Shown in pieces: positions 2-28,558 of a DNA stretch of 32,256 nucleotides. The notes beneath the pieces were generated by a model. That model searched no databases, was not told the origin of the DNA, and worked only from the letters and a program-made list of their open reading frames with translations. The stretch's first letter is position 1. Each line of letters begins with the position of its first letter. The position numbers and the translations under genes were made by a program. Source of the stretch: a virus. Taxonomy: Duplodnaviria; Heunggongvirae; Uroviricota; Caudoviricetes. The stretch covers positions 79,337 to 111,592 of the IMG/VR virus record IMGVR_UViG_3300028585_000002; one strand, written 5' to 3'.

Positions 2-202
2 GCCGAGACCACCGCGACGATCGCCGCTGCGGCCGACAAGCCGGTTGCGATCGGCAAGGCGCTGGGCTTCAAGACGATCCGCGGCGCCGACGAGCGCGAG
101 ATCGCGATCTTCATGGCCCAGCTCGAGGAAGACTCGGGCATGGCCGGCGCCGACGCATTCATGGAATTCGTCCGCACCATGAATAAGTCACCGGTGACGT
201 AA
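2..202 (+). CDS. 3' end of a gene truncated by the window edge, probably a ParB-like protein
   Basis: Frame +2 is open from base 2 to TAA 200-202 with GC3-rich codons: AETTATIAAAADKPVAIGKALGFKTIRGADEREIAIFMAQLEEDSGMAGADAFMEFVRTMNKSPVT*. The LGFKT...EE.SG..G.DAF tail and position upstream of the ABC ATPase recall ParB-like genes of SSU5-type elements. The diagnostic N-terminus is outside the window. Confidence 0.5.
   Translation, partial: AETTATIAAAADKPVAIGKALGFKTIRGADEREIAIFMAQLEEDSGMAGADAFMEFVRTMNKSPVT
184..201. promoter_or_regulatory. Palindromic operator copy 1 (TAAGTCACCGGTGACGTA)
   Basis: Matches the consensus of nine other copies. It lies in the last codons of the upstream ORF, with no convincing -10 box in register. 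Confidence 0.7.
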
Positions 203-360
203 TGAGAGACGATATTTGCTGCTGGATTGCCGATCGTCTGCCGCGGCGCCTGGTGTACTGGTGCGCCGTTCGCTTGATGGCCAACGCTTCGCGTCAGCGC
301 TCGGCGCGCGAAGTGAACGCGCTGACCCCGGCCGGCTGCCTGAAGGCCTGGGCGAAATGA
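202..360 (+). CDS. Small hypothetical protein, 52 aa (MRDDICCWIADRLPRRLVYWCAVRLMANASRQ...)
   Basis: ATG overlaps the upstream TAA (TAATG) and its TGA overlaps the next ATG (ATGA), consistent with translational coupling. Not in the supplied ORF track. Confidence 0.65.
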   Translation: MRDDICCWIADRLPRRLVYWCAVRLMANASRQRSAREVNALTPAGCLKAWAK

Positions 361-557
361 CCGAGACCACCCTGAAACGCGGCTCGATTGTGCTGGGCAT
401 GACCCGTACGGCGATCGTGCGCGGCATGGGCTGCGTCTGCACCGGCCCGGCCTACGGCACCCCTTACTGCCCCTGCACGCTCGCCTGGATGCAGGGCCAG
501 GTCTGCCACGACCCGGACGACCACGACGACAACGACTACGAGGATCGCAAGAAATGA
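357..557 (+). CDS. Small Cys-rich hypothetical protein, 66 aa (CxC-x9-CxC, acidic tail)
   Basis: ATGA overlaps at both ends. Sequence MTETTLKRGSIVLGMTRTAIVRGMGCVCTGPAYGTPYCPCTLAW... The longer 216 start in the ORF track overlaps the preceding ORF. Confidence 0.65.
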   Translation: MTETTLKRGSIVLGMTRTAIVRGMGCVCTGPAYGTPYCPCTLAWMQGQVCHDPDDHDDNDYEDRKK

Positions 558-1387
558 CCACCTACACCATCGACAAGCGCTATGAGACATCCGTCGAGCG
601 CACCCCGCGCGTGCTCGCGCTGGCCGAAGCATTCGGCCTGGGCCTGGACGACAAGGAATTCGTCGTGTTCGACAACCTGAAGCTGGACATCGAGCAGGGC
701 GACGTGGTCTACGTCACCGGCCAGTCCGGCGCCGGCAAGAGCACCGTGCTGCGCGAGCTGCAGCGCCAGATGGCCGACGAAGGTCTGGTCGTCGCCGACA
801 TCGACAAGGTCGTGCTGGAAGACAAGCCGCTGACCGACCAGATCGGCGCCACGCAGGAGCAGGGCCTGGCTTACCTGTCGCTGGCCGGCATCAACGACGC
901 CTACCTCTACCTGCGCAAGCCCGCCGAGCTGAGCGACGGCCAGCGCTACCGCTTCCGCCTGGCCAAGCTGATCGAGTCCGGCGCCAAGGTCTGGGTCGCC
1001 GACGAGTTCCTGGCCGTCCTGGATCGCACCGCGGCCAAGATCATCGCCTACACGCTGCAGAAGACCGCGCGCCAGGTCGGCGCAACGCTGCTCGTGGCCA
1101 CCACCCACACGGACATGGTCGCCGACCTGGCGCCGAGCCTCTACATCGAAAAACGCTACCGGGAAAAGATCCTGGTCGAGCGCACTGCGCGGCCAGCGCA
1201 CGAGCAGCGTGTGTACGACGAAAAGCATGAGCTGGACGAGCGCCTGGGCAAGCTGCTGGCCTTCTTCAGCAACCCGATCTTCGCCGGCCTGGATCCGGTC
1301 GAGCAAACCCGCCTGCGCGCGCAAGCCAGCGCGATGGGCCTCTATTCCGAAACCCTTGGCGAACGCATCGCCGCCTTCAAGAGCTGA
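554..1387 (+). CDS. Soluble ABC-family ATPase (COG2401-like ABC half) with an appended C-terminal helical domain
   Basis: Walker A GQSGAGKST, signature LSDGQ, Walker B VWVADEF, H-switch ATTH. No transmembrane segments and no permease gene nearby. The last ~60 aa (HEQRVYDEKHELDERLGKL...LGERIAAF) resemble a small standalone phage protein family. Confidence 0.92.
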   Translation: MTTYTIDKRYETSVERTPRVLALAEAFGLGLDDKEFVVFDNLKLDIEQGDVVYVTGQSGAGKSTVLRELQRQMADEGLVVADIDKVVLEDKPLTDQIGATQEQGLAYLSLAGINDAYLYLRKPAELSDGQRYRFRLAKLIESGAKVWVADEFLAVLDRTAAKIIAYTLQKTARQVGATLLVATTHTDMVADLAPSLYIEKRYREKILVERTARPAHEQRVYDEKHELDERLGKLLAFFSNPIFAGLDPVEQTRLRAQASAMGLYSETLGERIAAFKS

Positions 1388-1390
1388 ATC

Positions 1391-1788: not shown

Positions 1789-2759
1789 TCATCCTGGACA
1801 ACGAGGACATCCTGGTCGAGCGCCGCGCGCGCCCGGCCGGCCACCGTCTGTCGCTCCTGGACCGCATCTACATCGAGCGCGGCACCAAGGAGGACTGGGA
1901 AGTGCTGCACGAGCTGCACTACAAGGCCGACAAGACCGGTATCGGCCCGCGCTACTGGCGTTGCATGCTCGACGGCCAGGTGATCGGCGTGGGCGTCATG
2001 ACGGTGCCGAAGATGCTGCTCTCTGGCCGCAACGAGGCGATGAAGTACATGCGCCCGAACGTGAATGGCCGGGACACGCGCCTGGTCAACCGCACGCGCG
2101 CCATGTGGCTCAACGCCCAGGCCTGCACGAACAGCCGCCTGGTGCTCGACACGATGTACCGCGGCGCCGGCATCGCCTACCGCATGCAGAACCTGATGAT
2201 GCGCATGACCGGCTGCCGGTTCGTCGAGTTCCAGTCGTCGATGAGCAAATTCAATCCGTTCGCGGCCAAAGCCGGCATGCGCTTTACGAAACCGAAGCGC
2301 TCGGCCAACTACGCGAAGGGCCTGGCCTTCTTCCAGCGCTGGTTCGTGTCCGTCCCGATGGACTACGTGGGCATCAAGGAAGAGATCGACGCCATGTCGC
2401 CGGCGGTGCAGAAGAAATGCATCGCCGAGATGCGCAAGTTCTACTACACCTGCTCATCCATGGAAAAGTCGGGCGATAACCGCGCCAACGGCACCAGTCG
2501 GGTCGATGGCATGGAAGTGGGCTACTTGCTCAAGAGCCTGCAGCAGCTGGTCCTGGCCAGCCCGCTCTATGGCATCTTCGAAAACCCCGACCATGGCATC
2601 GAGCTGCCCGCGCGCCTGCCGCTGTTCGCGTTCGACAACCAGAGCCTGACCGAACCGCTCGACTTGGCGCGCGCACGCGAGCAAATGGGCACCATCCCAG
2701 CCCCCAAATTGACCGACACCCCGGAAGACGAAGATGAACCTGACGACGAAACAGATTGA
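1785..2759 (+). CDS. GNAT-fold acetyltransferase-like protein (partner of the ABC ATPase), 324 aa
   Basis: Acetyl-CoA-binding motif A-like SRLVLDTMYRGAGIAYRM and downstream MSKFNPFAAKAGMRF. Start placed at ATG 1785 (ATGA overlap) rather than 1704. Confidence 0.75.
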   Translation: MIILDNEDILVERRARPAGHRLSLLDRIYIERGTKEDWEVLHELHYKADKTGIGPRYWRCMLDGQVIGVGVMTVPKMLLSGRNEAMKYMRPNVNGRDTRLVNRTRAMWLNAQACTNSRLVLDTMYRGAGIAYRMQNLMMRMTGCRFVEFQSSMSKFNPFAAKAGMRFTKPKRSANYAKGLAFFQRWFVSVPMDYVGIKEEIDAMSPAVQKKCIAEMRKFYYTCSSMEKSGDNRANGTSRVDGMEVGYLLKSLQQLVLASPLYGIFENPDHGIELPARLPLFAFDNQSLTEPLDLARAREQMGTIPAPKLTDTPEDEDEPDDETD

Positions 2760-3057
2760 ACTGCTGCGCGTGATCGGCGCCGGCAACGGCCCGGCCCAGC
2801 CATGCGACCTGGACGAGATCCTGGACCGGGTCCGCTACGAGACCACCAAGGCGAGCCTGCAGTTCTCGATCCGCGCCCTGGTGGCTCACGGCCTGGTCGA
2901 GAAGCTGCCGACGGAGAAGCGGCGCGGGCGCCAGCGCCGGCCGATCACCGTAACCGAGCTGGGCCGCGGCTACGCCGGTGGATCCGGTCCCGGCGCGCGC
3001 GTGTCCGTCACTCCCGAGGAGGACGAGATGGACGAAATCGTGGAATTGATGGAGTAG
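2734..3057 (+). CDS. Winged helix-turn-helix DNA-binding protein
   Basis: LTTKQIELL helix, SLQFSIRALVAHGLVEK recognition helix and strand, basic wing RRGRQRR and ITVTELGR, typical of wHTH (MarR/PadR/LexA-N-like) folds. Confidence 0.75.
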   Translation: MNLTTKQIELLRVIGAGNGPAQPCDLDEILDRVRYETTKASLQFSIRALVAHGLVEKLPTEKRRGRQRRPITVTELGRGYAGGSGPGARVSVTPEEDEMDEIVELME

Positions 3058-3059
3058 CA

Positions 3060-3295
3060 ACTTATCACTCCCGCGATCATCTTTCTCCTGGAAACTTATG
3101 ACTCATAAGTGGTTTCCATGGGGAGGAGGGTGAAAAAGTGGACTTATGCTTTCTTTTGGGAAACTTATGCATGACCCCCTTTTCTATAAAGTATTTCATA
3201 CTTAGAAGAACATAAGTATTTAATGAATTACTTTAGCGAAAACGGTGGCATGCATAAGTCCTCGGAATGCATAAGTTCACGCCGGATAGATAAGT
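3060..3295. repeat. AT-rich intergenic array of ACTTATG / CATAAGT heptamers
   Basis: ACTTATG at 3094, 3142, 3163; CATAAGT at 3104, 3211, 3253, 3270; variants ACTTATC 3060 and GATAAGT 3289. Perfect inverted repeat ACTTATGA-C-TCATAAGT at 3094-3110; GGAAACTTATG repeated at 3090 and 3159. Confidence 0.8.
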
Positions 3296-3334
3296 CACCG
3301 GTGACTTGACACGGAACGGCAAAAGGATTAAAGT
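3291..3334 (+). promoter_or_regulatory. Operator copy 2 plus sigma70-like promoter for terS/terL
   Basis: TAAGTCACCGGTGACTTG at 3291-3308; TTGACA 3306-3311, 17 bp, TAAAGT 3329-3334. Confidence 0.85.
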
Positions 3335-3354
3335 CTGCCCGGTATTGTTCCTCC

Positions 3355-3385
3355 ACGGGCGCCTCTCCCTGCGCCCGTTTTTTTT
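3355..3385 (+). terminator. Intrinsic terminator in the terS leader
   Basis: Stem ACGGGCGC (3355-3362) / GCGCCCGT (3371-3378), 8-nt loop, run of 8 T (3378-3385). Confidence 0.8.
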
Positions 3386-3404
3386 GCCTGAAGGAATTAC
3401 AGTA

Positions 3405-4058
3405 GTGACAGCAGCCGCGAAGACCACGAAAAACCGCCTCACTGTGAAGCAGTGGGCCGAAGCCGAAGCCCTCTGGGAGAGCGGCACGGTCACGTACGAA
3501 GATTTGATGAGCAAGTTCGGCCTGGCCCAGTCCTCGTTCGAACGGCACTTCAAGAAGAAGGGCATCGTCAAGGGCGCCAAAGCCGCGGCGATCAAGGCCA
3601 AGGTCGACGAGAAGCTGGCTGTCGCCGCGATCGACGAGGCAACGATCATCGCCGCCCGGATCAAGGAGACCAAAGAGCAGCACTACACGATGTCGGCCAA
3701 CCTGTCGAAGCTGGCCTATTCGGAGATCCTGCAGGCGAAGAAGGACGGCCAGCCCGTCGCTGTCGCCATGAACAACCTCAAGGCGCTGGATAAGGCGATG
3801 GACGTGCTGGCCAAGGCCCGCACCGAGCGCTACGCCATCCTGGGCCTGGACCGTCCGGACGCGATCGACCCTGACGAGATGCCGGAGCTGGTCATTTCCG
3901 AGCTGACCGCTGAGCAGATCGAGGAGATGCGCAAGCGCGATGAAGCGGACCTGGACGCGCTGCCTGCCGGCGCCAACCAGAACGTTGTGCAGCCTGACGA
4001 GGAAGACCTCGACGATGGCGATGGCGACGACGAAAACGCGGTTGTCGAGGAATCTTGA
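3405..4058 (+). CDS. terS: Terminase small subunit
   Basis: N-terminal HTH (WAEAEALWESG...EDLMSKFG..SSFERHFKK), helical middle, acidic tail, immediately upstream of and overlapping terL. GTG start at 3405 with AAGGA 9 nt upstream. Confidence 0.8.
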   Translation: MTAAAKTTKNRLTVKQWAEAEALWESGTVTYEDLMSKFGLAQSSFERHFKKKGIVKGAKAAAIKAKVDEKLAVAAIDEATIIAARIKETKEQHYTMSANLSKLAYSEILQAKKDGQPVAVAMNNLKALDKAMDVLAKARTERYAILGLDRPDAIDPDEMPELVISELTAEQIEEMRKRDEADLDALPAGANQNVVQPDEEDLDDGDGDDENAVVEES

Positions 4059-5326: not shown

Positions 5327-5328
5327 GC

Positions 5329-5358
5329 TTGACACATAAGTCACCAGTGAATTACTAT
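5329..5358 (+). promoter_or_regulatory. Operator copy 3 plus promoter for portal
   Basis: TTGACA 5329-5334, 18 bp, TACTAT 5353-5358; operator TAAGTCACCAGTGAATTA at 5337-5354. Confidence 0.85.
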
Positions 5359-5366
5359 CCATCGCC

Positions 5367-7990: not shown

Positions 7991-8034
7991 TAAGTCACCG
8001 GTGACTTGACAATGCAGCCAATTTGGGGTATTGT
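7991..8034 (+). promoter_or_regulatory. Operator copy 4 plus promoter for major capsid gene
   Basis: TAAGTCACCGGTGACTTG 7991-8008; TTGACA 8006-8011, 17 bp, TATTGT 8029-8034. Confidence 0.85.
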
Positions 8035-8106
8035 CCTGGCTCATCCGGTGACTAGAGAGACTTAGGCCAGAGATAACTTTTTTCTTTCTTTTCAAGGATC
8101 TAAGAT

Positions 8107-9039: not shown

Positions 9040-9042
9040 TCC

Positions 9043-9071
9043 TTGTGACTCAGTCACCGGTGACTTAGAAT
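9043..9071 (+). promoter_or_regulatory. Operator copy 5 plus promoter for head-completion genes
   Basis: TTGTGA 9043-9048, 17 bp, TAGAAT 9066-9071; operator TCAGTCACCGGTGACTTA 9050-9067; extra overlapping inverted half-site GTGACT-C-AGTCAC 9045-9057. Confidence 0.8.
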
Positions 9072-9073
9072 AG

Positions 9074-9100
9074 AAAGGCGGGCTTCGGTCCGCCTTTTTT
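9074..9100 (+). terminator. Intrinsic terminator after the MCP gene and the copy-5 promoter
   Basis: AAAGGCGGGC-TTCG-GTCCGCC-TTTTTT, a UUCG tetraloop hairpin with a 6-T tail. Confidence 0.85.
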
Positions 9101-9121
9101 ACATCTTGCAAAAGGAAAACC

Positions 9122-12268: not shown

Positions 12269-12321
12269 TGGCCAAGCCACATCTTTTGTGGTATAGTCCG
12301 CGCTCAGTCATCAGTGACTTA
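12269..12321 (+). promoter_or_regulatory. Extended -10 promoter for tail tube gene with operator copy 6 at about +1 to +18
   Basis: TGGCCA 12269-12274, 17 bp, TGnTATAGT (-10 at 12292-12297); operator TCAGTCATCAGTGACTTA 12304-12321. Confidence 0.75.
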
Positions 12322-12883: not shown

Positions 12884-12890
12884 CTCCGGC

Positions 12891-12919
12891 TTGCAGCTAA
12901 GTCACCAGTGACTTAGAAT
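12891..12919 (+). promoter_or_regulatory. Operator copy 7 plus promoter for tail chaperones / tape measure
   Basis: TTGCAG 12891-12896, 17 bp, TAGAAT 12914-12919; operator TAAGTCACCAGTGACTTA 12898-12915. Confidence 0.82.
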
Positions 12920-12937
12920 AGGCGTAACCCAACCCCC

Positions 12938-12967
12938 AGGCCCGCTGCTTCAAGCGGGCCTACTTTT
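12938..12967 (+). terminator. Terminator-like hairpin in the tail chaperone leader
   Basis: AGGCCCGCT-GCTTCA-AGCGGGCCT followed by ACTTTT, a strong stem with a weak U-tract. Confidence 0.6.
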
Positions 12968-12985
12968 ACCTGCGAGGAATACACC

Positions 12986-13668: not shown

Positions 13669-13671
13669 GGC

Positions 13672-18982: not shown

Positions 18983-18996
18983 AATTTCCCTTCTTG

Positions 18997-19534: not shown

Positions 19535-19563
19535 TTGATAAGTCATCGGTGACTGAGTATAAT
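19535..19563 (+). promoter_or_regulatory. Operator copy 8 plus near-consensus promoter for gpL-K-I/J
   Basis: TTGATA 19535-19540, 17 bp, TATAAT 19558-19563; operator TAAGTCATCGGTGACTGA 19539-19556. Confidence 0.85.
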
Positions 19564-19571
19564 TGCCTGCT

Positions 19572-20568: not shown

Positions 20569-23500
20569 GAAGCAGCAAAAGGCCGCGCGCCGCGGTCGCC
20601 CGATGATCCCGGTAATCCGGATCACCAACCCATTCAACCCGCGCGAATTCACGCGCGAAGAGATCGCCTGGCAGCGCAAGAAGACCTTGGGCGCATACTT
20701 CCCACTGGCCGAGGCGGCGCCGGTCGTGGTCTCGATCAACGGCAAAATCATCCCGAACGAGAAGTTCGGCGTCACCTACCTGGACAAGACCGACAACATC
20801 GTTGTCTGCCCGGTCCCGACCGGCGGCGGCGGCAAGCAGATCCTGTCGATCGTGGCCATGATCGCCGTTGCGGTGTTCGCGCCGTACGCGGCCGTGGCGA
20901 TGGGTAACGCTATGGGCGTGGCTGTGGGCACTGTCGGCTCGCTGACGATGGCGGGCGCTGCCATGACGGCCGGTGTCGTTGCGGCAGGCTCGCTCCTGGT
21001 CGGCTCGATTTTCGCGCCAGCCAAGCCCACGGTGTCAGCCGGCGACACCAGCACGTCCTACGGCGCCGACGGGGCCAAGAACACCTCCCTGGAGGGCATC
21101 CCGGTTGCGGTCAACTACGGCCAGTTCCGCCTGGCTGGCAACATCCTGGGCCTGTACACCGAGAACGTCGCGGATGACAACCAGATCCTCTACATGCTGC
21201 TCTCGGCCGGCGAAGGACCGATCGCGTCCATCTCCGACATCCAGATCAACGACAACCCGCTCGAGGACTACGGCACCGACGTTGAAATTGAGACCCGTCT
21301 GGGCGGCGCACCGCAGGCGACGATTCCGTGGTTCAACAAGGTCGTCGTGCCGCAGAGCAAAAACGCCAAGCTCGACACCGACTGGACGTACCACACGACC
21401 ACAACGCCAGTTGACATGCTGCGCCTGGACTTTGCCGCGCCTTCTGGACTGTTTAAGGCCGACACCAAGAGCGGCAAGACCAACAGCTATTCTGTCCCGC
21501 TGCAGGCCCAATACCGGCCGGCAGACGGGGTATCGGAATGGATTGAGTTCCTGTCCGACGATGTGATGAGCTATTCGCAGGCTCGCGCGCGCACTGAGAA
21601 TGGCAAGACGGTGTGGCGCGACGAGAATGACACTCAAATCGTTGACGAAAACGCACTGACCTACCTGAGCAACAACACGGCCGGCAACATCATCACCGGC
21701 TTCGGCGCGAGCCTGACGGTGCGCGTGCCGGTGTACTCGGGCGCCATGTCCATGACCGCGTCGAAGCGCTCCGCCGTGCGCCGCTCCTTCACGTCGACCA
21801 AGCTCGCCAGTAAGAAGTATGAGGTGCGCGTGCGTCGCACCACCGAGGATAGTACGGAAGACGTGATCGTTGACGACGTGTACCTCACGGACGTGAACGA
21901 GATCGTGGTGCAGGCCATGAGCTATCCGAACACGGCGCTGGTGGCATTGAAGATCAAACTGGGCAGCAAGATTTCCGGCGCGCCGGCCGTGACGTTCATG
22001 CATGGCGGCCGCCTGATCAAGGCCTACGGCGCGCAGACCTACGGCGCCGAGCCTGGCTGGTACACCGCAGCGTCGAAGAACCCGGCTTGGGTCGTCTGGG
22101 ACATGCTCACGCACCAGCGCTACGGCGGCGCCATGTCGACCTCGCGCCTGGACTTCCCGGCCTTCCAGGAATGGGCGGCTTACTGCGACGCACAGGGCTA
22201 CGAGTGGAATGGCCCGATCGACTCCGAAATGAACGTCTGGGACGCCACCCAGCTTGTGCTGCGCGTAGGTCACTCCCAGCTGGTCAACGTCGGCACGCGC
22301 TACACCATCGTCACCGAAAAGCCCGGCAACCCGGTCATGATGTTCTCAGTGGCGAACATGATCGAGGGCAGCTACAAGGAGACTTGGCTGGGCACGCAGG
22401 ACCGCGCCAACGAGATCGACGTGAGCTTCTTCGACCGGACGGACAATTACAAGCAGCGCACGCTGAAAGTCTACGATCCGGCCGCACTCACCGCCGGCGC
22501 CAAGCAGCGCACGTCGGCCATCACCCTCTACGGCGTGACCGACTACGAAACCGCCTACAAAGAAGGTCAGTTCCAGCTGAACCTGAACCGCCACATCCTG
22601 CGCACCGCCGAATTCTCGGCACCGCTCGAGGCGGTCGCTTGCTCGGTTGGTGATCTGATCTATGTCCAGCACGACATGACCGAATGGGCTGTCGGCGGCC
22701 GCTTCGCCTCCGGCTCGAGCGCGTCCGTCGCGCAGCTGGACCGCCCGATCAAAATGGAAGCAGGCAAGCAGTACAAGCTGCTGGCGACGTTCGACGCGAT
22801 CCAGCGCGCGGCAGGCTCGGTCCTGTCCGTTGTGGGCACCTCGCTGTTCCTGGGCGGGTTCCGGGGCGATGCGCCGGTCAAGCGGATCCAGATCAACGGG
22901 CGCGACCTGCGCGTGGCTGGCACGTTCGATCACGGCGGCGGTCACGGCGTCATCGTCGAGGACGCCACTGGCATCTCGCCTGGCCACACTTACACCCTCT
23001 GGGACACGGACGTGATCGAGGAATCGAACGTCGTCAATGAGCCAGGCGAGGGCACCACCGTTACGCTGCAGATGCCGCTGTCGTCGGCGCCGGTCCAGTT
23101 CTCCAACTGGATGTTCGGCGAGGTCGACAAGGTCAAGCAGGCCTTCCGCGTGCGCTCCGTCACCGGCACCCATGAGTACAAGCGCGACATCACCGCCATC
23201 GAGTACAAGCCAGAGGTCTACGATTTCTCGCGCTACGGCACGAACGTCCCGACGATCCCGGCCAAGGACGGCGTGATCGGCCCGGTGCGCAACCTGTCGC
23301 TGTACGAGGAGACTTACGTCACCGGCTCGACGGTAGTGTCCAGCGTCGTCGCATCCTGGTCGACGCCGTCCGCCGGCAACTATGCTGGCGCGTCGGTGTA
23401 CGTCCAGAAGAACGACGGGCCGATGGTCAAGCTGATCGACGCCAAGAACGTCTCCTCTGCGGTCATCCCGGCCGAGAAGGACGACGTGATCAAGGTGCAG

Positions 23501-25546
23501 GTCCAGGCCTACGACATCTTCGGCAAGAACAGTCAGCTCGAGCTGGCGCCGACAGCGACCCACACCGTCACCGGCGAGGTGGCCGGCATCGACGTGGGCG
23601 GCGTCACCGGCGCGGGCTTCACCTGGGCCGGCCGCGACTGCAAGATCAACTGGCGATACAACTCGACCACGCACAGCTACGAGTTCGGCTCGGAGCCAAC
23701 CGGCGCGGACGCAGGCTCCCTGGACCCGCATTTTAAGGACTACGAGATCCGCGTCTACGACAAGGATCAAGCTGTCCTGCGCCGCACGGAATACACGACC
23801 GACAACAGCTACACGTACATCTACGACAAGAACTTCGCCGACGGCATCACGCGCCATCTGGTCTTTGAGATCCGCATGCGCGACAAGTTCAACAATCTGG
23901 GCAAGCCGGCCACGCTCGACGCCTATAATCCGCCGCCAACCGTGCTGTCGGTGGCTAGCACCTCGACGTTCGAATCGGCGACGGTGGCCTATACGCATTC
24001 GAACGACCCGGACTTCGCCGGCGCGTGCATCTGGCTGTCGGACAACCAGCACGACCTCGCGCTCGAGACGCCGCCGGCCGAGTTCCTTGTCTATGAAGGT
24101 CCGGATTCGGCCGTGCTGCTGCCGAACCTGATGTTCGCGCACGACTATTACTTCAAGGTGGCCCCGTTCGACGTGTTCGGCAAGACCGAGCTGCAGCCGT
24201 CGGCCGTGCTGCACTTCAAGACGACGAACCTGAACGTGGACGCGATCGCCGACGGCGTGCTGAAGGACTCGGTGCTGATCCCGGAGCTGCGCGAGCGCAT
24301 CAACCTGATCGACGCGCCAGAGACCACCATCGGCTCGGTGGCCCAGCGCCTCTTGGACCAGAAGAAGGCCAGCGACGCAGCGATTGCCGCCGAAGCATCG
24401 GCGCGCGCGACGGCGACCGAAGCGATTGCCACGACCCTGAACGCCGTGGCGGTCAAGACCGACAAGAACATGGCGGCGATCCAGGACGAGGCGACGGCGC
24501 GCACCACGGCCATCTCTGCCGAGGCAACGCGCCGCATGGAGCAGATCGCGCAGTACGATACGAATATCCGGTCGTATGTGCAGAGCTACACCTATAGCAA
24601 GGCATCGGCTGACTCGACAACGAATGCGGTCTACAACACCCTGCGCTCGGAATACGCCAGCGCCGACAACAACACGCTGCGCTCGGCCCAGTCATATGTG
24701 CAGAGCTACGGCTACACCAAGGCCGAGGCCAACAACGCGATCTCCTCGCAGGTCGGGCAAGTAACCGCACGCCTGAACAACGTCGGCGGCGTCACGGTCG
24801 AGCAAGCCTACAGCGCTCAGGCCAGCAGCATCAACGGTCTGTCGGGACAGTACACCGTCAAGATCGACAACAACGGCTACGTGTCCGGTTTCGGCCTGGC
24901 TTCGACCGCCCGCAATGGCGTGCCAACGTCTGAGTTCATCATCAACGCCGACAGCTTCGCTGTCGTGACCGGTGGAGGCGTCGAGCGCCCGTTCACCATC
25001 GGCAGCGTGAACGGTGTGACCCGCACCATCATCAAGTCCGCTTTGATCGGCGACGCCAGCATCACCAGCGCCAAGATTGGCGACGCCCAGATCAACAGCG
25101 CCAAGATCGGCGACGCCTCGGTCAGCACGCTCAAGATCGCCGGCAACGCGGTAACGTTCATGGCCACGGCCAGCGGCTCAACCTCGGCATCGGTGACGAT
25201 CGCGACGCAAGGCGGGCCAGTGTTCGTTGCCGGCACGGCCACGACCGAGACATACGACTCGGCTGGCGCCGGCGCCAACGACCTGAGCATTCGGATCAAC
25301 ATGTACCGCGACGGCTCCTTGATCAAGACCGCCAAGACGATGATCCGGATCGGCGCGCATGAGGGCGCTGAGATCGCCGTGTCGGCCGTCTTCATCGACT
25401 ACCCATCCGGCAGCCCCAACTCGCCGACGCAGCACACCTACAGATTTACCGCGACCAGCGATGGATACAGCGGCACCTCGGACGTGACGCCGATTGGCGG
25501 CACGTCCTACACGGTCAATGGAGCAGTTTTGGAGACGAGACGATGA
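20558..25546 (+). CDS. Tail tip / central fibre protein J with fused N-terminal gpI-like region
   Basis: N-terminal VVSING...VVCPVPTGGGGK plus Gly/Ala hydrophobic stretch (gpI-like); IPVAVNYG, YPNTALV, NPAWVVWDMLT, FSVANMIEGS, FN3-like segments; YTVKIDNNGYVSGFGL and ITSAKIGDA repeats. Start at ATG 20558, with 20603 as alternative. Confidence 0.92.
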   Translation: MQDKKQQKAARRGRPMIPVIRITNPFNPREFTREEIAWQRKKTLGAYFPLAEAAPVVVSINGKIIPNEKFGVTYLDKTDNIVVCPVPTGGGGKQILSIVAMIAVAVFAPYAAVAMGNAMGVAVGTVGSLTMAGAAMTAGVVAAGSLLVGSIFAPAKPTVSAGDTSTSYGADGAKNTSLEGIPVAVNYGQFRLAGNILGLYTENVADDNQILYMLLSAGEGPIASISDIQINDNPLEDYGTDVEIETRLGGAPQATIPWFNKVVVPQSKNAKLDTDWTYHTTTTPVDMLRLDFAAPSGLFKADTKSGKTNSYSVPLQAQYRPADGVSEWIEFLSDDVMSYSQARARTENGKTVWRDENDTQIVDENALTYLSNNTAGNIITGFGASLTVRVPVYSGAMSMTASKRSAVRRSFTSTKLASKKYEVRVRRTTEDSTEDVIVDDVYLTDVNEIVVQAMSYPNTALVALKIKLGSKISGAPAVTFMHGGRLIKAYGAQTYGAEPGWYTAASKNPAWVVWDMLTHQRYGGAMSTSRLDFPAFQEWAAYCDAQGYEWNGPIDSEMNVWDATQLVLRVGHSQLVNVGTRYTIVTEKPGNPVMMFSVANMIEGSYKETWLGTQDRANEIDVSFFDRTDNYKQRTLKVYDPAALTAGAKQRTSAITLYGVTDYETAYKEGQFQLNLNRHILRTAEFSAPLEAVACSVGDLIYVQHDMTEWAVGGRFASGSSASVAQLDRPIKMEAGKQYKLLATFDAIQRAAGSVLSVVGTSLFLGGFRGDAPVKRIQINGRDLRVAGTFDHGGGHGVIVEDATGISPGHTYTLWDTDVIEESNVVNEPGEGTTVTLQMPLSSAPVQFSNWMFGEVDKVKQAFRVRSVTGTHEYKRDITAIEYKPEVYDFSRYGTNVPTIPAKDGVIGPVRNLSLYEETYVTGSTVVSSVVASWSTPSAGNYAGASVYVQKNDGPMVKLIDAKNVSSAVIPAEKDDVIKVQVQAYDIFGKNSQLELAPTATHTVTGEVAGIDVGGVTGAGFTWAGRDCKINWRYNSTTHSYEFGSEPTGADAGSLDPHFKDYEIRVYDKDQAVLRRTEYTTDNSYTYIYDKNFADGITRHLVFEIRMRDKFNNLGKPATLDAYNPPPTVLSVASTSTFESATVAYTHSNDPDFAGACIWLSDNQHDLALETPPAEFLVYEGPDSAVLLPNLMFAHDYYFKVAPFDVFGKTELQPSAVLHFKTTNLNVDAIADGVLKDSVLIPELRERINLIDAPETTIGSVAQRLLDQKKASDAAIAAEASARATATEAIATTLNAVAVKTDKNMAAIQDEATARTTAISAEATRRMEQIAQYDTNIRSYVQSYTYSKASADSTTNAVYNTLRSEYASADNNTLRSAQSYVQSYGYTKAEANNAISSQVGQVTARLNNVGGVTVEQAYSAQASSINGLSGQYTVKIDNNGYVSGFGLASTARNGVPTSEFIINADSFAVVTGGGVERPFTIGSVNGVTRTIIKSALIGDASITSAKIGDAQINSAKIGDASVSTLKIAGNAVTFMATASGSTSASVTIATQGGPVFVAGTATTETYDSAGAGANDLSIRINMYRDGSLIKTAKTMIRIGAHEGAEIAVSAVFIDYPSGSPNSPTQHTYRFTATSDGYSGTSDVTPIGGTSYTVNGAVLETRR

Positions 25547-25938
25547 TTGGTTTTGTGATTTACAACGAAGCGGGAGCAATCCTGGAAGCGGGAGCAATCC
25601 CGGAGGCGCTGCTCGAGAGCCAAGCCGGCGAGGGTCGTTTTGTCCTGGCTGGCGAGGGCCACTGGGACACGCATTACGTGGTCGATGGGCAGCTGGCCGA
25701 GCGGCCGGTCATGCCTGTCGAAATGTCAGCAACCGAGGCGGCAGCGAACGCGACCGACGAGGTCGTGATCTCGGGCATCCCCGAAGGCGCCGCCGTCAAG
25801 GTCATCGGACGCGGCGGTGGGGAAGGCGTGGCCGACGGTGCGGCGCTGCACCTGACGTTCGCGCAGGCGGGCCGCTATCAGGTAATGGCGACCCTTTTCC
25901 CATACCAAGACTGGAAAGTGAGCATCCATGCGAATTGA
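25543..25938 (+). CDS. Hypothetical tail tip-associated protein
   Basis: 131 aa, ATGA overlap with J, GC3-biased; HYVVDGQLAERP motif seen in small genes following J. Confidence 0.7.
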   Translation: MIGFVIYNEAGAILEAGAIPEALLESQAGEGRFVLAGEGHWDTHYVVDGQLAERPVMPVEMSATEAAANATDEVVISGIPEGAAVKVIGRGGGEGVADGAALHLTFAQAGRYQVMATLFPYQDWKVSIHAN

Positions 25939-26341
25939 CGTACACCCGTTCAAGGACATCGCTGAAGCGCGCGAGTGGGCGCGGATCGAGATCGACAACG
26001 CTGCCGGCGCCGCGCGCACCCGCTACATCACCGTCACGGCTGGCCAGGACGCGACCTACCAAGCCAAGTACGCCGACGCCCTGGCCTTTGCGCGCGCCGG
26101 CTACCCGGAAGACCAGGTGGCCCAGTATCCGTGGGTTCAGACCGAGGCCCTGGCCACCGGGGTGACGCCGCGCGCTGCTGCCGACTCCATCAAGGCGGTG
26201 GGCGACCCTTGGAACATGGTGATCGGGCCGATGATCGAGGGCCTGCGCATCGGCGGCAAGACCAAGCTCGACACCCTGGCCACGATCGGGGCCATCGTCG
26301 CTCACACGCGGACGGTGCGCGCGGAGCTGGACCGAGCCTGA
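25928..26341 (+). CDS. Putative tail fibre assembly / chaperone-like protein
   Basis: 137 aa; IDNAAGAARTRYIT...GQDATYQAKYADA...YPWVQTEA pattern typical of small tail-associated helical proteins. Confidence 0.6.
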   Translation: MRIDVHPFKDIAEAREWARIEIDNAAGAARTRYITVTAGQDATYQAKYADALAFARAGYPEDQVAQYPWVQTEALATGVTPRAAADSIKAVGDPWNMVIGPMIEGLRIGGKTKLDTLATIGAIVAHTRTVRAELDRA

Positions 26342-26343
26342 CC

Positions 26344-26372
26344 TTATATGTAAGTCATGGATGACTTATGAT
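26344..26372 (+). promoter_or_regulatory. Operator copy 9 plus promoter for tail fibre gene
   Basis: TTATAT 26344-26349, 17 bp, TATGAT 26367-26372; operator TAAGTCAT-GG-ATGACTTA 26351-26368. Confidence 0.75.
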
Positions 26373-26404
26373 AGACTGCCGCCAACACACTTTTAGGTGA
26401 AGAA

Positions 26405-28513
26405 ATGCCACAGCTTAAGCAGACCTGTGCCGTCACGAACGGCAGCCAAATCGTTACGGTCAAAGGCGCCAACCTGTCGACCCGCGTCAAGAAGAACCAC
26501 GTCTTCATGCTGGAGGGCGCTCTGGTGCCCTACACGGTGGCGATGGATCCAACCTACGACGGCACCAACACCACCGTCACCCTGACCGGCGCGTACGTCG
26601 GCCCGACCGATCTGGCCGCCAAGGGCGTGTTCGCGGTTGACACGACCTACCCGGACATGATCCCGACGATCTCACAGGGCGACGTGGGCACGGCGGCAGT
26701 CTTCACTTACGCCATGTACCGCATCCAGGAGCTGATCCACGCGGTCGACCCGAGCGGCCTGGCGCAGTACGTCGACTATTGGAAGGACGTGAAGAAATGG
26801 AATGCTGACGTAAGTGCGTCCGAGCAGCACGTCGTCGCCCTGGAGGCCGCGGCCGAAGCGCACCGCGCCGACGCAGCCGCATCCAAGGCGGCAGCTGCAG
26901 CATCCGAGATGAAGGCCCTGGCCAGCGAGACGGCTGCCGACCAATCGTCCGACGCCGCCGCATTGTCCGAGCTGCACGCCGGCATGAGTCAGTACGCTGC
27001 CGCCGACAGTGAAGCAGCGGCCCTCGCCAGCCAGAATGCAGCTAAGGCATCGCAAGACGCTGCCGCCGGCAGCCAGGCGGCCGCACTCGCATCCCAGGAC
27101 GCCGCGAAGCTGTCCGAAACTGAGGCCAAAACGTCGGAAGGCGCCGCCCGCACCAGCGAGGGCAAGGCCCTGGCCAGCGAACGTGCGGCCGCCGCATCCC
27201 AGGCTGCAGCCCTGGTATCCGAAAAGGCAGCAGACGACTCCGAAGCTGCGGCACTGGCCAGCGAGCGCGCGGCGGCCACCTCGGAGCAGCATGCCAAGGC
27301 GTCCGAGACCGCGGCTGCTGCATCCCAGCGCGCAGCGGCCACGTCGGAGCAGAACGCCAGCGCCAGCGAGACCAATGCCGCCGAGTCGGAAGCGAACGCC
27401 CTGGCCTACAAGCTGGCAGCCGAGCAGGCCACGATCGACGCGCCGGCCGTCCACGCCGACCGCATTGCTGCCGACGCCGCTGCAGCGGCTGCCGCCGCGT
27501 CCGAGGCCGCTGCCCTGGCCAGCCAGGACGCCGCAAGCTCCAGCGAGCGCAATGCGAAAGCCAGCGAGGTCAGCGCGACCCAGTCCGAAGCGAATGCTTT
27601 GGCGAGCAAGCGAGACGCCCTGAAGTCCCGTACCGATGCGCAAGACGCCCGCGACCTGTCGCTGGAATACCGCAACACCACGAAGGGCTACCTGGACGCT
27701 GCGCGCGACGCCACGGTCAACGCGGTTCAGGTGCGTGACGACCGCCTGGCGGCAGACGCTTCGGCAGCGGCCGCACGCACATCCGAAGTCAACGCCTTGG
27801 CCAGCGAGCACAATGCCGCAGCCAGCGCCGACTTCGCTGACCAGCGAGCCACCACCTCGGACGAACGAGCGATCTTCGCCGACCAGCGCGCGCACGACGC
27901 GAATGCCAGCGCCACTGCTGCCGCATCGAGCGAAGCTGCCGCTCAGGTGTCCGAAGAAGCGGCGCTGGCCAGCCAGGTCGCTGCTGAGCTTTCGCAGGGC
28001 GCCGCAAGCCAGTCCGAGAACGCTGCCGCCGAATCGGCGCGCCAGGCCAAGGCCAGCGAGATCGCGGCAGCGGCAAGTGAGCGCGCGGCAACCGCATCCG
28101 AGATCGGCGCCGCCGCATCGCAGGTCGCCGCCAAGGCAGCAGAGAACAAGTCCGACGCCTGGGCGAACACGGAGCAGGGCGTCGAGGTCGAACCCGGCCA
28201 GTATTCGGCAAAGCACTGGGCGCAGACCGCCGGCGCGCTCGCTGGTGGTGCGATGGCCTACATCGGCGTGTGGGACGCATCGGACGGCAAGTACCCACCG
28301 ACGCCGGCCAAGGGCCACTTCTACAAGATCAGCAAGGCTGGCCTGATCGACGGCACCGAGTACCAGGCGCTGGACATGATCATCTTCAGCGGCACGAGCT
28401 GGGACAAGATCGACAACACCGAGAACGAGTCGGCCCAGGCGATCGCGGACCTTGAGACGCGCATGATGGCGCAGCTGCGCGTGGTCAAAGCACTGGCAAT
28501 TCTGGGGCTTTGA
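26405..28513 (+). CDS. Side tail fibre-like protein with long Ala/Ser/Glu-rich coiled-coil repeats
   Basis: 702 aa; about aa 145-580 made of AAASE.AA..SE.NA repeats as in Stf-like fibres; KSDAWA...GQYSAKHWA and YIGVWDAS...YKIS motifs near the C-terminus. Confidence 0.8.
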   Translation: MPQLKQTCAVTNGSQIVTVKGANLSTRVKKNHVFMLEGALVPYTVAMDPTYDGTNTTVTLTGAYVGPTDLAAKGVFAVDTTYPDMIPTISQGDVGTAAVFTYAMYRIQELIHAVDPSGLAQYVDYWKDVKKWNADVSASEQHVVALEAAAEAHRADAAASKAAAAASEMKALASETAADQSSDAAALSELHAGMSQYAAADSEAAALASQNAAKASQDAAAGSQAAALASQDAAKLSETEAKTSEGAARTSEGKALASERAAAASQAAALVSEKAADDSEAAALASERAAATSEQHAKASETAAAASQRAAATSEQNASASETNAAESEANALAYKLAAEQATIDAPAVHADRIAADAAAAAAAASEAAALASQDAASSSERNAKASEVSATQSEANALASKRDALKSRTDAQDARDLSLEYRNTTKGYLDAARDATVNAVQVRDDRLAADASAAAARTSEVNALASEHNAAASADFADQRATTSDERAIFADQRAHDANASATAAASSEAAAQVSEEAALASQVAAELSQGAASQSENAAAESARQAKASEIAAAASERAATASEIGAAASQVAAKAAENKSDAWANTEQGVEVEPGQYSAKHWAQTAGALAGGAMAYIGVWDASDGKYPPTPAKGHFYKISKAGLIDGTEYQALDMIIFSGTSWDKIDNTENESAQAIADLETRMMAQLRVVKALAILGL

Positions 28514-28514
28514 A

Positions 28515-28558
28515 TAAGTCACCAGTGACTTGACTAGGGATATGGAATCCTATACCAT
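28515..28558 (+). promoter_or_regulatory. Operator copy 10 plus promoter for the distal fibre module
   Basis: TAAGTCACCAGTGACTTG 28515-28532; TTGACT 28530-28535, 17 bp, TACCAT 28553-28558. Confidence 0.85.

What the first reader, a model, noticed from the sequence alone, without database searches (positions are those of the whole stretch)
184..28532. Ten-copy 18-bp palindromic operator defines a regulon over the virion module
Seen in sequence: near-identical palindromes at 184 (TAAGTCACCGGTGACGTA), 3291 and 7991 (TAAGTCACCGGTGACTTG), 5337 (TAAGTCACCAGTGAATTA), 9050 (TCAGTCACCGGTGACTTA), 12304 (TCAGTCATCAGTGACTTA), 12898 (TAAGTCACCAGTGACTTA), 19539 (TAAGTCATCGGTGACTGA), 26351 (TAAGTCATGGATGACTTA) and 28515 (TAAGTCACCAGTGACTTG); consensus TMAGTCAYCRGTGACTTR. 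Nine sit in short intergenic gaps on sigma70-like promoters for terS, portal, MCP, head completion, tail tube, chaperone/TMP, gpL-J, fibre and distal fibre operons. By eye I found none in the middle of a gene. Established analogues: P1 C1 operators and P1 Lpa late-promoter inverted repeats, and RK2 KorB operators. Inference: one phage-encoded dimer switches about nine separate structural promoters, instead of a single lambda-style late promoter. I do not recognise this motif as described.
Basis: partly seen in the sequence, partly recalled or inferred. Interest (0 to 1): 0.88.

Follow-up and report, generated by a model that had tools for sequence, protein, structure and literature searches.

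The report
Dispersed operators of a phage-plasmid repressor
The ten 18-bp palindromes are real, but they are a quarter of about 42 such sites spread over the whole 112-kb plasmid-like phage, built into its promoters at three exact positions, and most likely bound by the phage's own 434-repressor-like protein to keep nearly all lytic genes switched off.

Summary
Observation confirmed: all ten sites are at the stated coordinates (0.09 matches expected by chance). There is also a weak eleventh site at 28890.

The motif is not specific to the virion module. The whole 111.6-kb genome has 42 sites, 40 of them between genes.

Five distant relatives (GC 44-67%) carry 39-51 sites each. Sister lineages, including A. 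baumannii AB-group plasmids, pAMS5a, a Cupriavidus plasmid and pLM21S1, carry variant palindromes of the same design.

In a Massilia isolate with a close relative, all 35 matches lie on the 113-kb phage contig and none on the rest of the 6.3-Mb genome.

Sites sit in three exact registers relative to sigma70-type -10 boxes, centred near -41.5, -19.5 and +2.5.

The only protein whose presence tracks the palindromes across 14 genomes is a 151-aa Xre/434-cI-like protein. It lies outside the window, on the opposite strand, behind a weak operator of its own. The wHTH and ParB-like proteins do not track the motif.

Best reading: a global prophage repressor regulon (about 0.65). A P1-Lpa-like activator role is not excluded.

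This scan reached a similar repressor reading earlier, on another window of the same genome. No paper in the held library contains the motif.

The parts
184..201 (+). Operator-like palindrome TAAGTCACCGGTGACGTA at a gene junction: the last codons and stop of a ParB_N-domain gene, with the next ATG at 201. No -10 box in any of the three registers.
   Evidence: 25.9 bits. The same site, with the same G at position 16, is present in the Massilia relative.
3291..3334 (+). Palindrome 3291-3308 in register a (centre about -41.5). Its last three bases, TTG, start the -35 box TTGACA (3306-3311); 17-nt spacer; -10 box TAAAGT (3329-3334). Lies upstream of the terS-like gene (3405-4058).
   Evidence: phrog_867 for the gene
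3355..3386 (+). Strong terminator-like hairpin plus a run of eight T, inside the leader between the 3306 promoter and the terS-like gene.
   Evidence: RNA fold -15.8 kcal/mol, z = -4.7
5329..5358 (+). Palindrome 5337-5354 in register b (centre about -19.5), inside the spacer of TTGACA (5329-5334) and TACTAT (5353-5358). The portal ATG at 5367 is only 8 nt after the -10 box.
   Evidence: portal phrog_145. The same arrangement is seen in G002, G003, G004, G005 and W06.
7991..8034 (+). Palindrome 7991-8008 in register a. -35 box TTGACA (8006-8011), -10 box TATTGT (8029-8034). Upstream of the major head protein gene (8107-9039).
   Evidence: phrog_212. Register a is also used at this junction in G002 and G004.
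9043..9071 (+). Palindrome 9050-9067 in register b, between TTGTGA (9043-9048) and TAGAAT (9066-9071). It follows the head-protein stop codon directly.
9073..9100 (+). Intrinsic terminator hairpin and T-run that begins 2-6 nt after the -10 box of the 9043 promoter. The predicted start point falls inside its 5' arm.
   Evidence: RNA fold -18.1 kcal/mol, z = -4.8. The order stop, -35, palindrome, -10, hairpin is conserved in 8 genomes.
12269..12321 (+). Extended -10 promoter (TG-n-TATAGT, 12292-12297) with palindrome 12304-12321 six nt downstream, covering about +1 to +18. Upstream of the Ig-domain tail tube gene (12347-12883).
   Evidence: The layout of -10 box then palindrome then leader is conserved in G002-G005, W04, W05, W06 and W08; the junction has neither element in nickie or BUCTxx99.
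12891..12919 (+). Palindrome 12898-12915, the best site in the genome (32.7 bits), in register b between TTGCAG (12891-12896) and TAGAAT (12914-12919). Followed by hairpin 12938-12961.
19535..19563 (+). Palindrome 19539-19556 inside the spacer of TTGATA and TATAAT (11 of 12 consensus matches). The -10 box starts at motif position 20. Upstream of the minor tail gene (ATG at 19572).
   Evidence: phrog_18
26351..26372 (+). Palindrome 26351-26368 in register b with -10 box TATGAT (26367-26372) and a poor -35 box. Upstream of the 702-aa fibre gene (26405-28513).
28515..28558 (+). Palindrome 28515-28532 in register a. -35 box TTGACT (28530-28535), -10 box TACCAT (28553-28558). Upstream of ORF 28582-28896 and the distal fibre genes.
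28890..28907 (+). Weak eleventh site, TCAGTAACGAATGACTGA, at a stop/start junction. No promoter in register.
   Evidence: 14.9 bits

Best explanation
The palindromes are operators of one phage-encoded dimeric repressor. The repressor is most likely a 151-aa protein encoded outside the window at genome position 16556-17011 on the minus strand. It has a 434-cI/Cro-type helix-turn-helix followed by an all-helical C-terminal domain.

The genome is a phage-plasmid-like siphovirus that carries a TrfA replication initiator, and its close relative is a separate 113-kb contig in a Massilia isolate. In the prophage state the dimer would occupy about 42 sites. Each site is packed against or inside a sigma70-type core promoter:
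- overlapping the -35 box (centre -41.5);
- filling the spacer and sharing TA with the -10 box (centre -19.5);
- or starting at the last T of the -10 box (centre +2.5).

Occupancy would exclude host RNA polymerase and silence almost every lytic unit at once, including the nine virion units in the window. A weaker operator just downstream of the repressor gene's own -10 box would give negative autoregulation. Loss of the repressor, by a signal not yet identified, would release all units together.

Shown here: the sites, their distribution, their registers, their restriction to the phage, and the co-occurrence with the protein. Inferred: binding, the sign of regulation, and dimerisation.
For: 1. 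The sites are real and almost wholly intergenic. In G000, 40 of 42 sites lie in the 14.7% of the genome that is non-coding (p = 3e-31). Across six genomes the figure is 244 of 269.

2. The sites sit in three sharp registers. Over 243 oriented sites, a -10-like hexamer starts at motif position 17 in 54 sites, at 39 in 30 sites (with TTG at position 16 in 36 sites), and at -4 in 21 sites. About 1.3 per offset is expected by chance. Sites over the spacer, and sites at or after the start point, can only hinder polymerase. The tail-tube layout of -10 box then palindrome is conserved in nine genomes.

3. Both half-sites are conserved and the central four bases are free. Deviations are one-sided: only 23 of 526 deviating pair-cells are compensated. 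This is the signature of a protein dimer site on DNA, not of an RNA stem.

4. Phyletic test over 14 related genomes of 105-118 kb. The Xre-like protein is the only G000 protein present in all seven palindrome-bearing relatives first tested and absent from phage nickie. The profile search adds homologues in the A. baumannii plasmid, in RHph_Y2_11 and in a Cronobacter plasmid, and finds none in the lytic isolates nickie and BUCTxx99, which also lack any dispersed palindrome.

5. Specificity varies together. Six genomes with GTCAC half-sites have N-x-x-T-M-x-K-Q-G-K-T-K in the recognition helix. Three genomes with GTCAG half-sites have S or A in place of T. pLM21S1, with GTAAG half-sites, differs after the helix. 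The helix is the best conserved part of a protein that is otherwise only 32-71% identical.

6. Fold. The N-terminal domain superposes on the 434 repressor (2or1_L, 1.7 A over 61 columns) and on 434 Cro. The whole chain resembles the repressors Stl and DdrO. Pfam gives HTH_3 and HTH_19 hits, both slightly below their cut-offs.

7. The gene has the context of an immunity gene. It lies on the opposite strand to nearly all other genes, next to low-GC cargo. It diverges from a small conserved ORF that has its own weak operator. In all eight genomes examined it has a degenerate operator upstream of its start codon, 45-145 nt away.

8. No host regulon. In the 6.3-Mb Massilia sp. TN1-12 genome all 35 matches lie on the 113-kb phage contig.
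Against: No binding, footprint or expression data exist for this phage.

Only about a third of register-b sites have a recognisable -35 box (21 of 64 with TTG at the right spacing; mean 3.1 of 6 matches against a background of 2.4). Many units therefore look like 'palindrome plus -10 box', the design of activator-dependent P1 late promoters.

A site centred at -41.5 has the geometry from which lambda and 434 repressors and C-proteins activate transcription.

The lytic relatives lack the internal promoters as well as the operators, so their loss of the protein does not show that it is dispensable for these promoters.

One shared operator for replication, virion and accessory genes leaves the timing of the lytic programme unexplained.

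The recognition-helix covariation rests on few lineages and one clear position.

The Pfam HTH hits are just under their curated cut-offs.
Confidence: 0.65

Rival explanations
1. The palindrome is the binding element of a transcription activator, in the manner of the P1 Lpa late-promoter inverted repeat. The dimer would stand in for a missing -35 contact and switch on about 40 promoters during lytic growth.
For: Two thirds of register-b sites lack a recognisable -35 box but have good -10 boxes. Palindrome plus -10 box is the conserved unit, for example TGARCTATAAT. Internal promoters and palindromes are present or absent together across relatives. Precedent: P1 late genes are expressed from specific promoters that need Lpa (PMC8198154).
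Against: About 21 sites start at the last base of the -10 box, and others lie a few nt downstream of it. The conserved tail-tube promoter is one of these. An activator cannot work from there. Register-a promoters often have a perfect TTGACA with a 17-nt spacer (7 of 26). The sites are not limited to late genes. The candidate protein resembles repressors in fold and in gene context.
Confidence: 0.12
2. One protein acts as a register-dependent dual regulator. It represses at -19.5 and +2.5 but activates from -41.5 through a contact with sigma region 4, as lambda cI does at PRM or C-proteins do at their own promoters.
For: Register a places the dimer from -50 to -33, the class II position. All 26 register-a promoters have imperfect -10 boxes, with 4-5 of 6 matches. 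C-proteins and the 434 repressor are among the best fold matches.
Against: In the window, the register-a genes are terS, the major head protein and a fibre unit. These are lytic genes that should not be activated in a lysogen, and they are mixed with register-b genes of the same module. Orthologous junctions differ in layout between relatives, which argues for one shared output.
Confidence: 0.12
3. Another phage protein binds the sites: a KorB/ParB-like protein (genome positions 77850-79538, ending at window position 202), the wHTH at window 2734-3057, or the sigma-like protein. The Xre-like protein would be a local regulator only.
For: Two ParB_N-domain proteins lie just upstream of the window, and site 184 lies at the end of one of them. 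RK2 KorB binds 13-bp palindromes at many promoters (own knowledge), and this genome has a TrfA gene.
Against: Both ParB_N proteins are conserved in nickie, which has no palindromes. The wHTH is missing from G004 and pLM21S1, which have many. The sigma-like protein is detectable in BUCTxx99, which has no palindromes, and is not detected in G001 or the Acinetobacter plasmid, which have many. A sigma factor would not need a two-fold symmetric site.
Confidence: 0.05
4. The repeats are not primarily protein operators. They could be RNA hairpins used for processing or stability, or mobile promoter/stem-loop cassettes that spread and mediate module shuffling, like the PeSL cassettes of T4-type phages. 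They could also be sites of a host factor.
For: Several copies share flanks beyond the 18-mer, such as GTGACTTAGAATAG at 9050 and 12898 and TGAACTATAATG at four sites. The sites mark the borders of variable modules.
Against: The RNA stems are weak, -3 to -5 kcal/mol. Mismatches are not compensated. In registers a and b the site lies upstream of the predicted start point. The sequence, not only the symmetry, is held constant across genomes of 44-67% GC. No copy occurs in 6.2 Mb of host DNA, so a host regulon is unlikely.
Confidence: 0.04

Closest known systems
Cluster A mycobacteriophage immunity (L5 gp71, Bxb1): operators and 'stoperators'
   Same: One prophage repressor has 20-30 binding sites spread through the whole genome, virion genes included, mostly in short intergenic gaps. 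Motif and repressor co-vary between sublineages. Some members are extrachromosomal prophages (PMC6550527).
   Different: L5 sites are 13-bp, asymmetric and oriented with transcription. Most are not in promoters and act by blocking elongation. Here the sites are 18-bp two-fold symmetric, and at least 43% sit in one of three exact promoter registers. The repressor family and the host phylum differ.
Phage-plasmid P1: C1 repressor operators and Lpa-dependent late promoters
   Same: A plasmid prophage is kept silent by one repressor that binds many dispersed operators. Its late genes are split into many operons, each with its own specially marked promoter (PMC8198154). From my own knowledge, P1 late promoters carry a -10 box plus a 9-bp inverted repeat near -22.
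   Different: P1 uses two systems: asymmetric C1 operators for early functions, and an activator (Lpa) for late ones. Here a single palindrome marks early, late and accessory units. No C1 homology was found, and Lpa homology was not tested.
RK2/IncP global regulon (KorA, KorB)
   Same: Short palindromic operators recur at many promoters of one replicon, at set positions relative to the core promoter. A TrfA-type initiator is present here too. The weakest sequence hint for the Xre-like protein in the PDB is to KorA-domain proteins, E about 0.6, which is not significant.
   Different: RK2 has 7 and 12 sites, not about 42. KorB is a ParB-family protein, whereas the ParB_N proteins here do not follow the motif. 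RK2 controls plasmid functions, not a virion programme.
Streptomyces phage phiC31 repressor c and its conserved inverted repeats (own knowledge, not checked in a paper here)
   Same: A 17-bp conserved inverted repeat is present in well over a dozen copies in intergenic regions and is bound by the phage repressor.
   Different: Different repressor family and host. Fewer sites. No fixed three-register fusion with sigma70 promoter boxes has been described.
434 / lambda cI-Cro operators
   Same: The DNA-binding domain has the same fold (2or1_L, 2cro). The G-K-T-K loop after the recognition helix is shared. The palindrome has half-site centres one helical turn apart and a free centre. Register a has the geometry of OR2 relative to PRM.
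   Different: Lambdoid phages have six operators at two loci and one late promoter with antitermination. The protein here lacks an S24 self-cleavage domain and has a helical C-terminal domain like those of Stl and DdrO.

Membership tests
Xre / 434-cI-type HTH repressors (for the proposed binder, genome 16556-17011, minus strand) | Five-helix HTH_3-type DNA-binding domain | tested here: met
   AlphaFold model has mean pLDDT 83.7. Foldseek matches: 434 repressor 2or1_L, TM 0.78 normalised by target, rmsd 1.7 A; 434 Cro, TM 0.80. Pfam HTH_3 scores 22.4 bits against a cut-off of 23, just under it. PHROG 'transcriptional regulator' hits.
Xre / 434-cI-type HTH repressors | Binds a two-fold symmetric operator as a dimer | not testable with these tools
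   The sites are two-fold symmetric with a free centre. Binding itself needs EMSA or footprinting.
LexA-like self-cleaving phage repressors (lambda cI type) | C-terminal S24 peptidase domain for RecA-stimulated cleavage | tested here: not met
   No Peptidase_S24 hit. The C-terminal half is all-helical.
Cluster A 'stoperator' systems | Asymmetric 13-bp sites in one orientation relative to transcription | tested here: not met
   The sites are palindromic, and both halves are conserved at about 7 of 8 positions.
Cluster A 'stoperator' systems | Most sites lie outside promoters and act as elongation blocks | tested here: not met
   105 of 243 sites have a -10 box in one of three exact registers, against about 4 expected. 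A few, such as sites 184 and 28890, have no promoter and could act as roadblocks.
Cluster A 'stoperator' systems | Tens of sites genome-wide, with motif and repressor co-varying between sublineages | tested here: met
   39-70 sites per genome. Three motif classes match three recognition-helix variants.
P1 Lpa-type late promoters | -10 box plus an inverted repeat near -22 in place of a -35 box | tested here: inconclusive
   Register b is centred at -19.5. 43 of 64 such sites lack TTG at the -35 position and 21 have it.
P1 Lpa-type late promoters | Restricted to late (morphogenesis, lysis) operons | tested here: not met
   Sites also precede PhoH, helicase-primase, CobT/MoxR-like, polymerase-region and accessory genes.
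RK2 KorB-type regulon | The binder is a ParB-family protein encoded by the replicon | tested here: not met
   Both ParB_N proteins persist in nickie, which has no palindromes.
Phage-plasmids (AB / pLM21S1 / nickie-related lineage of Pfeifer et al. 2021, PMC7969092) | A phage genome with plasmid replication functions, found as a separate replicon | tested here: met
   TrfA. Nearest public relatives are 100-118-kb plasmids. The close relative is a separate 113-kb contig in Massilia sp. TN1-12. Caveat: a tyrosine recombinase is present, so integration is not excluded.

The most novel reading that the evidence does not exclude
A whole lineage of about 110-kb phage-plasmids of Alpha-, Beta- and Gammaproteobacteria, including the common A. 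baumannii AB-group plasmids, runs its lytic programme from about 40 compact promoter-operator cassettes instead of a few promoters plus antitermination.

One Xre-type dimer would read the same 18-bp site in three registers, with the outcome possibly depending on the register. Several cassettes are fused to the preceding gene's terminator so that the new transcript starts inside the terminator stem and escapes it. The result would be insulated, individually gated units.

Specificity classes (GTCAC, GTCAG, GTAAG) would then define immunity groups across these elements.
Probability: 0.2. Interest if true: 0.78.

Novelty: new variant of a known kind. Interest (0 to 1): 0.6.

Why it matters
Phage-plasmids of this lineage are widespread, but how they stay silent as plasmids and how they switch to lytic growth is unknown. 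The published descriptions of pLM21S1 and pABTJ2 read here mention no such repeated palindromes, and the pABTJ2 paper states that the element lacks a phage repressor.

This finding gives three testable things: a concrete 18-bp operator, a named candidate repressor, and a map of about 40 controlled promoters per genome. The candidate has natural specificity variants and natural repressor-less lytic relatives to compare against.

If confirmed, it would show a third way, beside the L5 stoperators and the P1 C1/Lpa pair, of silencing a large prophage from many sites. It would predict immunity groups among these elements. It would also supply a set of compact, tightly gated promoters in three defined geometries for studying how operator position sets the outcome.

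Tried and rejected
- **Homodimer prediction** of the Xre-like protein: no verdict. The score was 0.41 against a mark of 0.42. It is not used as evidence either way.
- **Public sequencing runs**: no RNA holder is listed. The only full holder is a leaf-litter metagenome that may be the source of the DNA. No expression data could be obtained.
- **Operator quality against promoter quality** in register b, as a test of repressor against activator: there is no relation with the -35 box. The negative relation with the -10 box (rho = -0.46) only reflects shared bases. Uninformative on the sign of regulation.
- **RNA-hairpin reading**: rejected. The stems are weak and 96% of deviating pairs are uncompensated.
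- **Host transcription factor**: rejected as unlikely, since there are no sites in 6.2 Mb of Massilia DNA outside the phage contig. Comparison from memory with the CRP, FNR, LexA, Fur and lambda operator consensus sequences found no match in geometry.
- **ParB-like, wHTH and sigma-like proteins as the binder**: their phyletic patterns do not fit.
- **TetR gene** (genome position 53077-53682): not conserved in any relative, so it is cargo.
- **Reversed-sequence controls**: these proved invalid for the TCAGTCAG-type motif, because the reversed motif resembles itself.
- **Megablast against phages and plasmids**: found only distant relatives, at 72-83% identity on the terminase, portal and head genes.
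- **Literature searches** for the core 14-mers of all three motif classes: found nothing. The library does not cover subscription journals.

Full report
**Observation.** They give 20 strand-matches, against 0.09 expected from shuffles. The flanks show that nine sites lie in short gaps between + strand genes. Site 184 covers the last codons of a ParB_N-domain gene. A position weight matrix (PWM) built later adds a weak eleventh site at 28890. An independent consensus scan lists eight + strand sigma70-like promoters in the window, and seven of them overlap a palindrome.

**Wider setting.** The window is the last 32 kb of a 111,592-bp IMG/VR virus record with 127-bp terminal repeats and 61% GC. 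The motif is not confined to the virion genes. The whole genome has 42 sites of 12 bits or more, 31 of them outside the window. Densities are similar, 0.39 per kb outside against 0.34 per kb inside. Forty of the 42 sites lie between genes or at gene edges, although only 14.7% of the genome is non-coding (p = 3e-31).

The genome carries a TrfA-type initiator, two ParB_N proteins, a PIN toxin, an H-NS-like protein, a TetR-regulated cargo unit, low-GC defence-like genes and a tyrosine recombinase. Its nearest annotated relatives are 100-118-kb plasmids and the phages nickie, RHph_Y2_11 and BUCTxx99. This is the AB / pLM21S1 / nickie-related lineage of phage-plasmids described by Pfeifer et al. 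(PMC7969092). The closest cultured relative is a 112,962-bp contig of Massilia sp. TN1-12, 76-92% identical over the pieces compared.

**Conservation.** Five IMG/VR genomes of 106-118 kb share only about 70% nucleotide identity with this one over part of their length, and their GC ranges from 44 to 67%. They carry the same 18-mer, with 39-51 sites each, again almost all intergenic. More distant plasmids carry palindromes of the same length and skeleton but with changed half-sites:
- TCAGTCAG..CTGACTGA in a Cupriavidus plasmid, in Methylobacterium pAMS5a and in an A. baumannii AB-group plasmid.
- TAAGTAAG..CTTACTTA, 70 sites, in Sinorhizobium pLM21S1.

The lytic isolates nickie and BUCTxx99 have no dispersed palindrome at all. 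In the 6.3-Mb Massilia genome all 35 matches lie on the phage contig and none elsewhere.

**Anatomy.** I oriented 243 intergenic sites from six genomes towards the downstream gene and counted -10-like hexamers at every offset. Three sharp peaks stand out against about 1.3 expected per offset:
- A hexamer starting at motif position 17 (54 sites).
- A hexamer starting at position 39 (30 sites), with TTG at position 16 in 36 sites. That is a -35 box whose TTG is the end of the palindrome, followed by a 17-nt spacer.
- A hexamer starting at position -4 (21 sites), so that the first T of the palindrome is the last T of the -10 box.

Taking the -10 box as -12 to -7, these registers centre the palindrome at -19.5, -41.5 and +2.5. 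They are the three tightest ways to pack an 18-bp site against a core promoter. With a looser criterion, 105 of 243 sites fall in one of the three. Others are shifted by a few bases, for example 19539 and the tail-tube promoter at 12269-12321.

Both half-sites are conserved and the central four bases vary. Departures from the consensus are one-sided: 23 of 526 deviating pair-cells are compensated. As RNA the stems are weak. This is what a sequence-specific dimer site on DNA looks like, and not what a structured RNA looks like.

**Who binds.** I compared every G000 protein with the relatives. Only one protein is present in all seven palindrome-bearing genomes first tested and absent from nickie. 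It is a 151-aa protein at 16556-17011 on the minus strand. A profile of the family also finds it in the A. baumannii plasmid, in RHph_Y2_11 and in a Cronobacter SSU5-like plasmid, but not in nickie or BUCTxx99.
- Both ParB_N proteins are present in nickie.
- The wHTH at window 2734-3057 is missing from two palindrome-bearing genomes.
- A newly noticed sigma-like protein is detectable in BUCTxx99 but not in two palindrome-bearing genomes.

The 151-aa protein has weak HTH_3 and HTH_19 hits. Its model has an N-terminal domain that superposes on the 434 repressor and on Cro at 1.7 A. The whole chain resembles the repressors Stl and DdrO. It has no S24 peptidase domain.

Its recognition helix and the following G-K-T-K loop are the best conserved part of the protein. 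The six GTCAC genomes have T at the fourth helix position. The three GTCAG genomes have S or A there. pLM21S1 differs in the loop.

The gene is one of the few on the minus strand. It lies next to low-GC cargo and diverges from a small conserved ORF. In all eight genomes examined it has a degenerate operator 45-145 nt upstream of its start. In most of them that operator follows a TATAAT-like -10 box. The family has at least 116 cluster representatives, many of them on contigs of 104-112 kb, and none has a name more specific than 'XRE-family regulator'.

**Mechanism.** The simplest account is a global prophage repressor. One dimer occupies about 42 operators that overlap the -35 box, the spacer or the start point of the lytic promoters. 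It regulates its own gene through a weaker site. The genes expected to work in the plasmid state (TrfA, PIN, H-NS-like, TetR cargo, defence-like genes) have no strong site. Sites at and after the -10 box cannot serve activation.

I hold this reading at about 0.65, because several facts leave room for a positive role:
- Two thirds of register-b promoters lack a recognisable -35 box, as P1 Lpa-dependent promoters do.
- The -41.5 register is the classical activating position of lambda and 434 repressors and of C-proteins.
- The lytic relatives lack the internal promoters together with the operators, so they do not show that the promoters work without the protein.

A test relating operator strength to promoter strength was uninformative. 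No RNA data could be found, and the dimer prediction gave no verdict. These last two are not used as evidence.

**Comparison with known systems.** In logic this is closest to the cluster A mycobacteriophage system, with 20-30 repressor sites across the genome and motif and repressor co-varying (PMC6550527). It is also close to phage-plasmid P1, with many C1 operators and Lpa-marked late promoters (PMC8198154). It differs from L5 because the sites are palindromic and built into promoters rather than asymmetric elongation blocks. It differs from P1 because one motif serves early, late and accessory units. It differs from RK2 KorA/KorB in scale and in the protein family. It differs from lambdoid phages in having about 40 operators and no single late promoter.

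No paper in the held library contains the core of any of the three motif classes. The descriptions of pLM21S1 and pABTJ2 do not mention the repeats, and the pABTJ2 paper states that the element lacks a phage repressor. An earlier follow-up in this scan, on another window of the same genome, reached the repressor reading. I tested that reading independently here and extended it with the third register, the phyletic and specificity tests, the host-genome control and the sister lineages.

**Verdict.** It is wrong in scope (not a virion regulon) and probably wrong in its candidate proteins. I class this as a new variant of a known kind of system, of moderate to high interest because it is lineage-wide, undescribed and directly testable.

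Noticed in passing
window 9037-9121 (also 12884-12985): After the head gene the order is stop codon, -35 box, palindrome, -10 box, strong terminator hairpin, RBS. The -10 box ends 0-6 nt before the stem, so the predicted start point falls inside the terminator's 5' arm. Upstream transcripts would stop, while transcripts started here might escape. The layout is conserved in eight genomes. Nickie keeps the terminator without the palindrome. After the tail-tube gene the hairpin lies fully inside the predicted transcript and has a weak U-tract.
   Followed up: partly
window 3058-3404: The terS promoter (3306-3334) is followed within about 20 nt by a strong hairpin plus eight T (3355-3386), before the terS-like gene. 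Transcripts from this promoter should terminate in the leader unless something prevents it. Upstream lies an AT-rich stretch with repeated ACTTATG / CATAAGT words, which may be a packaging or control region.
   Followed up: partly
genome G000 21059-21832 (+), outside the window: A 257-aa protein matches sigma-70 region 2 (Pfam 26.4 bits, above the cut-off; TIGR02937 below its cut-off). It is a possible phage-encoded sigma factor. Relatives are detectable in most genomes of the lineage, including the lytic BUCTxx99. Its promoters are unknown.
   Followed up: partly
genome G000 17228-17582 (+), outside the window: A small 63-aa ORF (17313-17504) lies divergent from the repressor candidate. It has its own weak register-b operator with a TATAAT box, and its own terminator. 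It is conserved next to the Xre gene in G002-G005 and has no Pfam family. It may be a Cro-like or anti-repressor partner.
   Followed up: partly
window 18506-19440 (-): Two minus-strand ORFs sit in a lower-GC stretch (54-55%) between the tape-measure-distal genes and the minor tail gene. One has a T5orf172 domain. Neither is found in any relative. This looks like an inserted homing-endonuclease-like or cargo unit inside the tail module.
   Followed up: partly
window 5353-5369 and 19558-19574: At the portal and minor-tail units the -10 box ends only 8 nt before the ATG, and no Shine-Dalgarno sequence lies between them. The transcripts from these promoters would be leaderless or nearly so.
   Followed up: no
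window 8041-8066: The leader of the head gene holds a conserved word, close to CATCGGTGACTAGAGCGACTTAGG. It is shared by G002-G005 and, in weaker form, by the A. baumannii plasmid. It contains a half-site-like GGTGACT. Its role is unknown.
   Followed up: no
genome G000 14309-16471 (-), outside the window: Two genes with very low third-position GC (37-39%) lie directly downstream of the repressor candidate on the same strand. One has a weak GmrSD_N hit. Neither is found in any relative. They are probably defence cargo expressed with the repressor in the prophage state.
   Followed up: partly
genome G000 13195-14256 (+) and 56295-57389 (-), outside the window: A tyrosine recombinase (Phage_integrase, 78.6 bits) coexists with a TrfA-type initiator. 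It could be a Cre-like dimer resolvase or an integrase, so the plasmid lifestyle is likely but not proven.
   Followed up: partly
L244-L249 (Cronobacter sakazakii pCS1, SSU5-like): This plasmid has a homologue of the Xre-like protein but a different repeated palindrome, AAACAA-N-TTGTTT (13 exact copies). It also has a few TA(A/G)GTAA..TTAC(T/C)TA sites. The SSU5 group may use a related scheme with another specificity.
   Followed up: no
genome G000 22758-26210 (+), outside the window: The DNA polymerase III alpha-type replicase carries a C-terminal uracil-DNA-glycosylase-superfamily domain (residues about 1001-1129).
   Followed up: no
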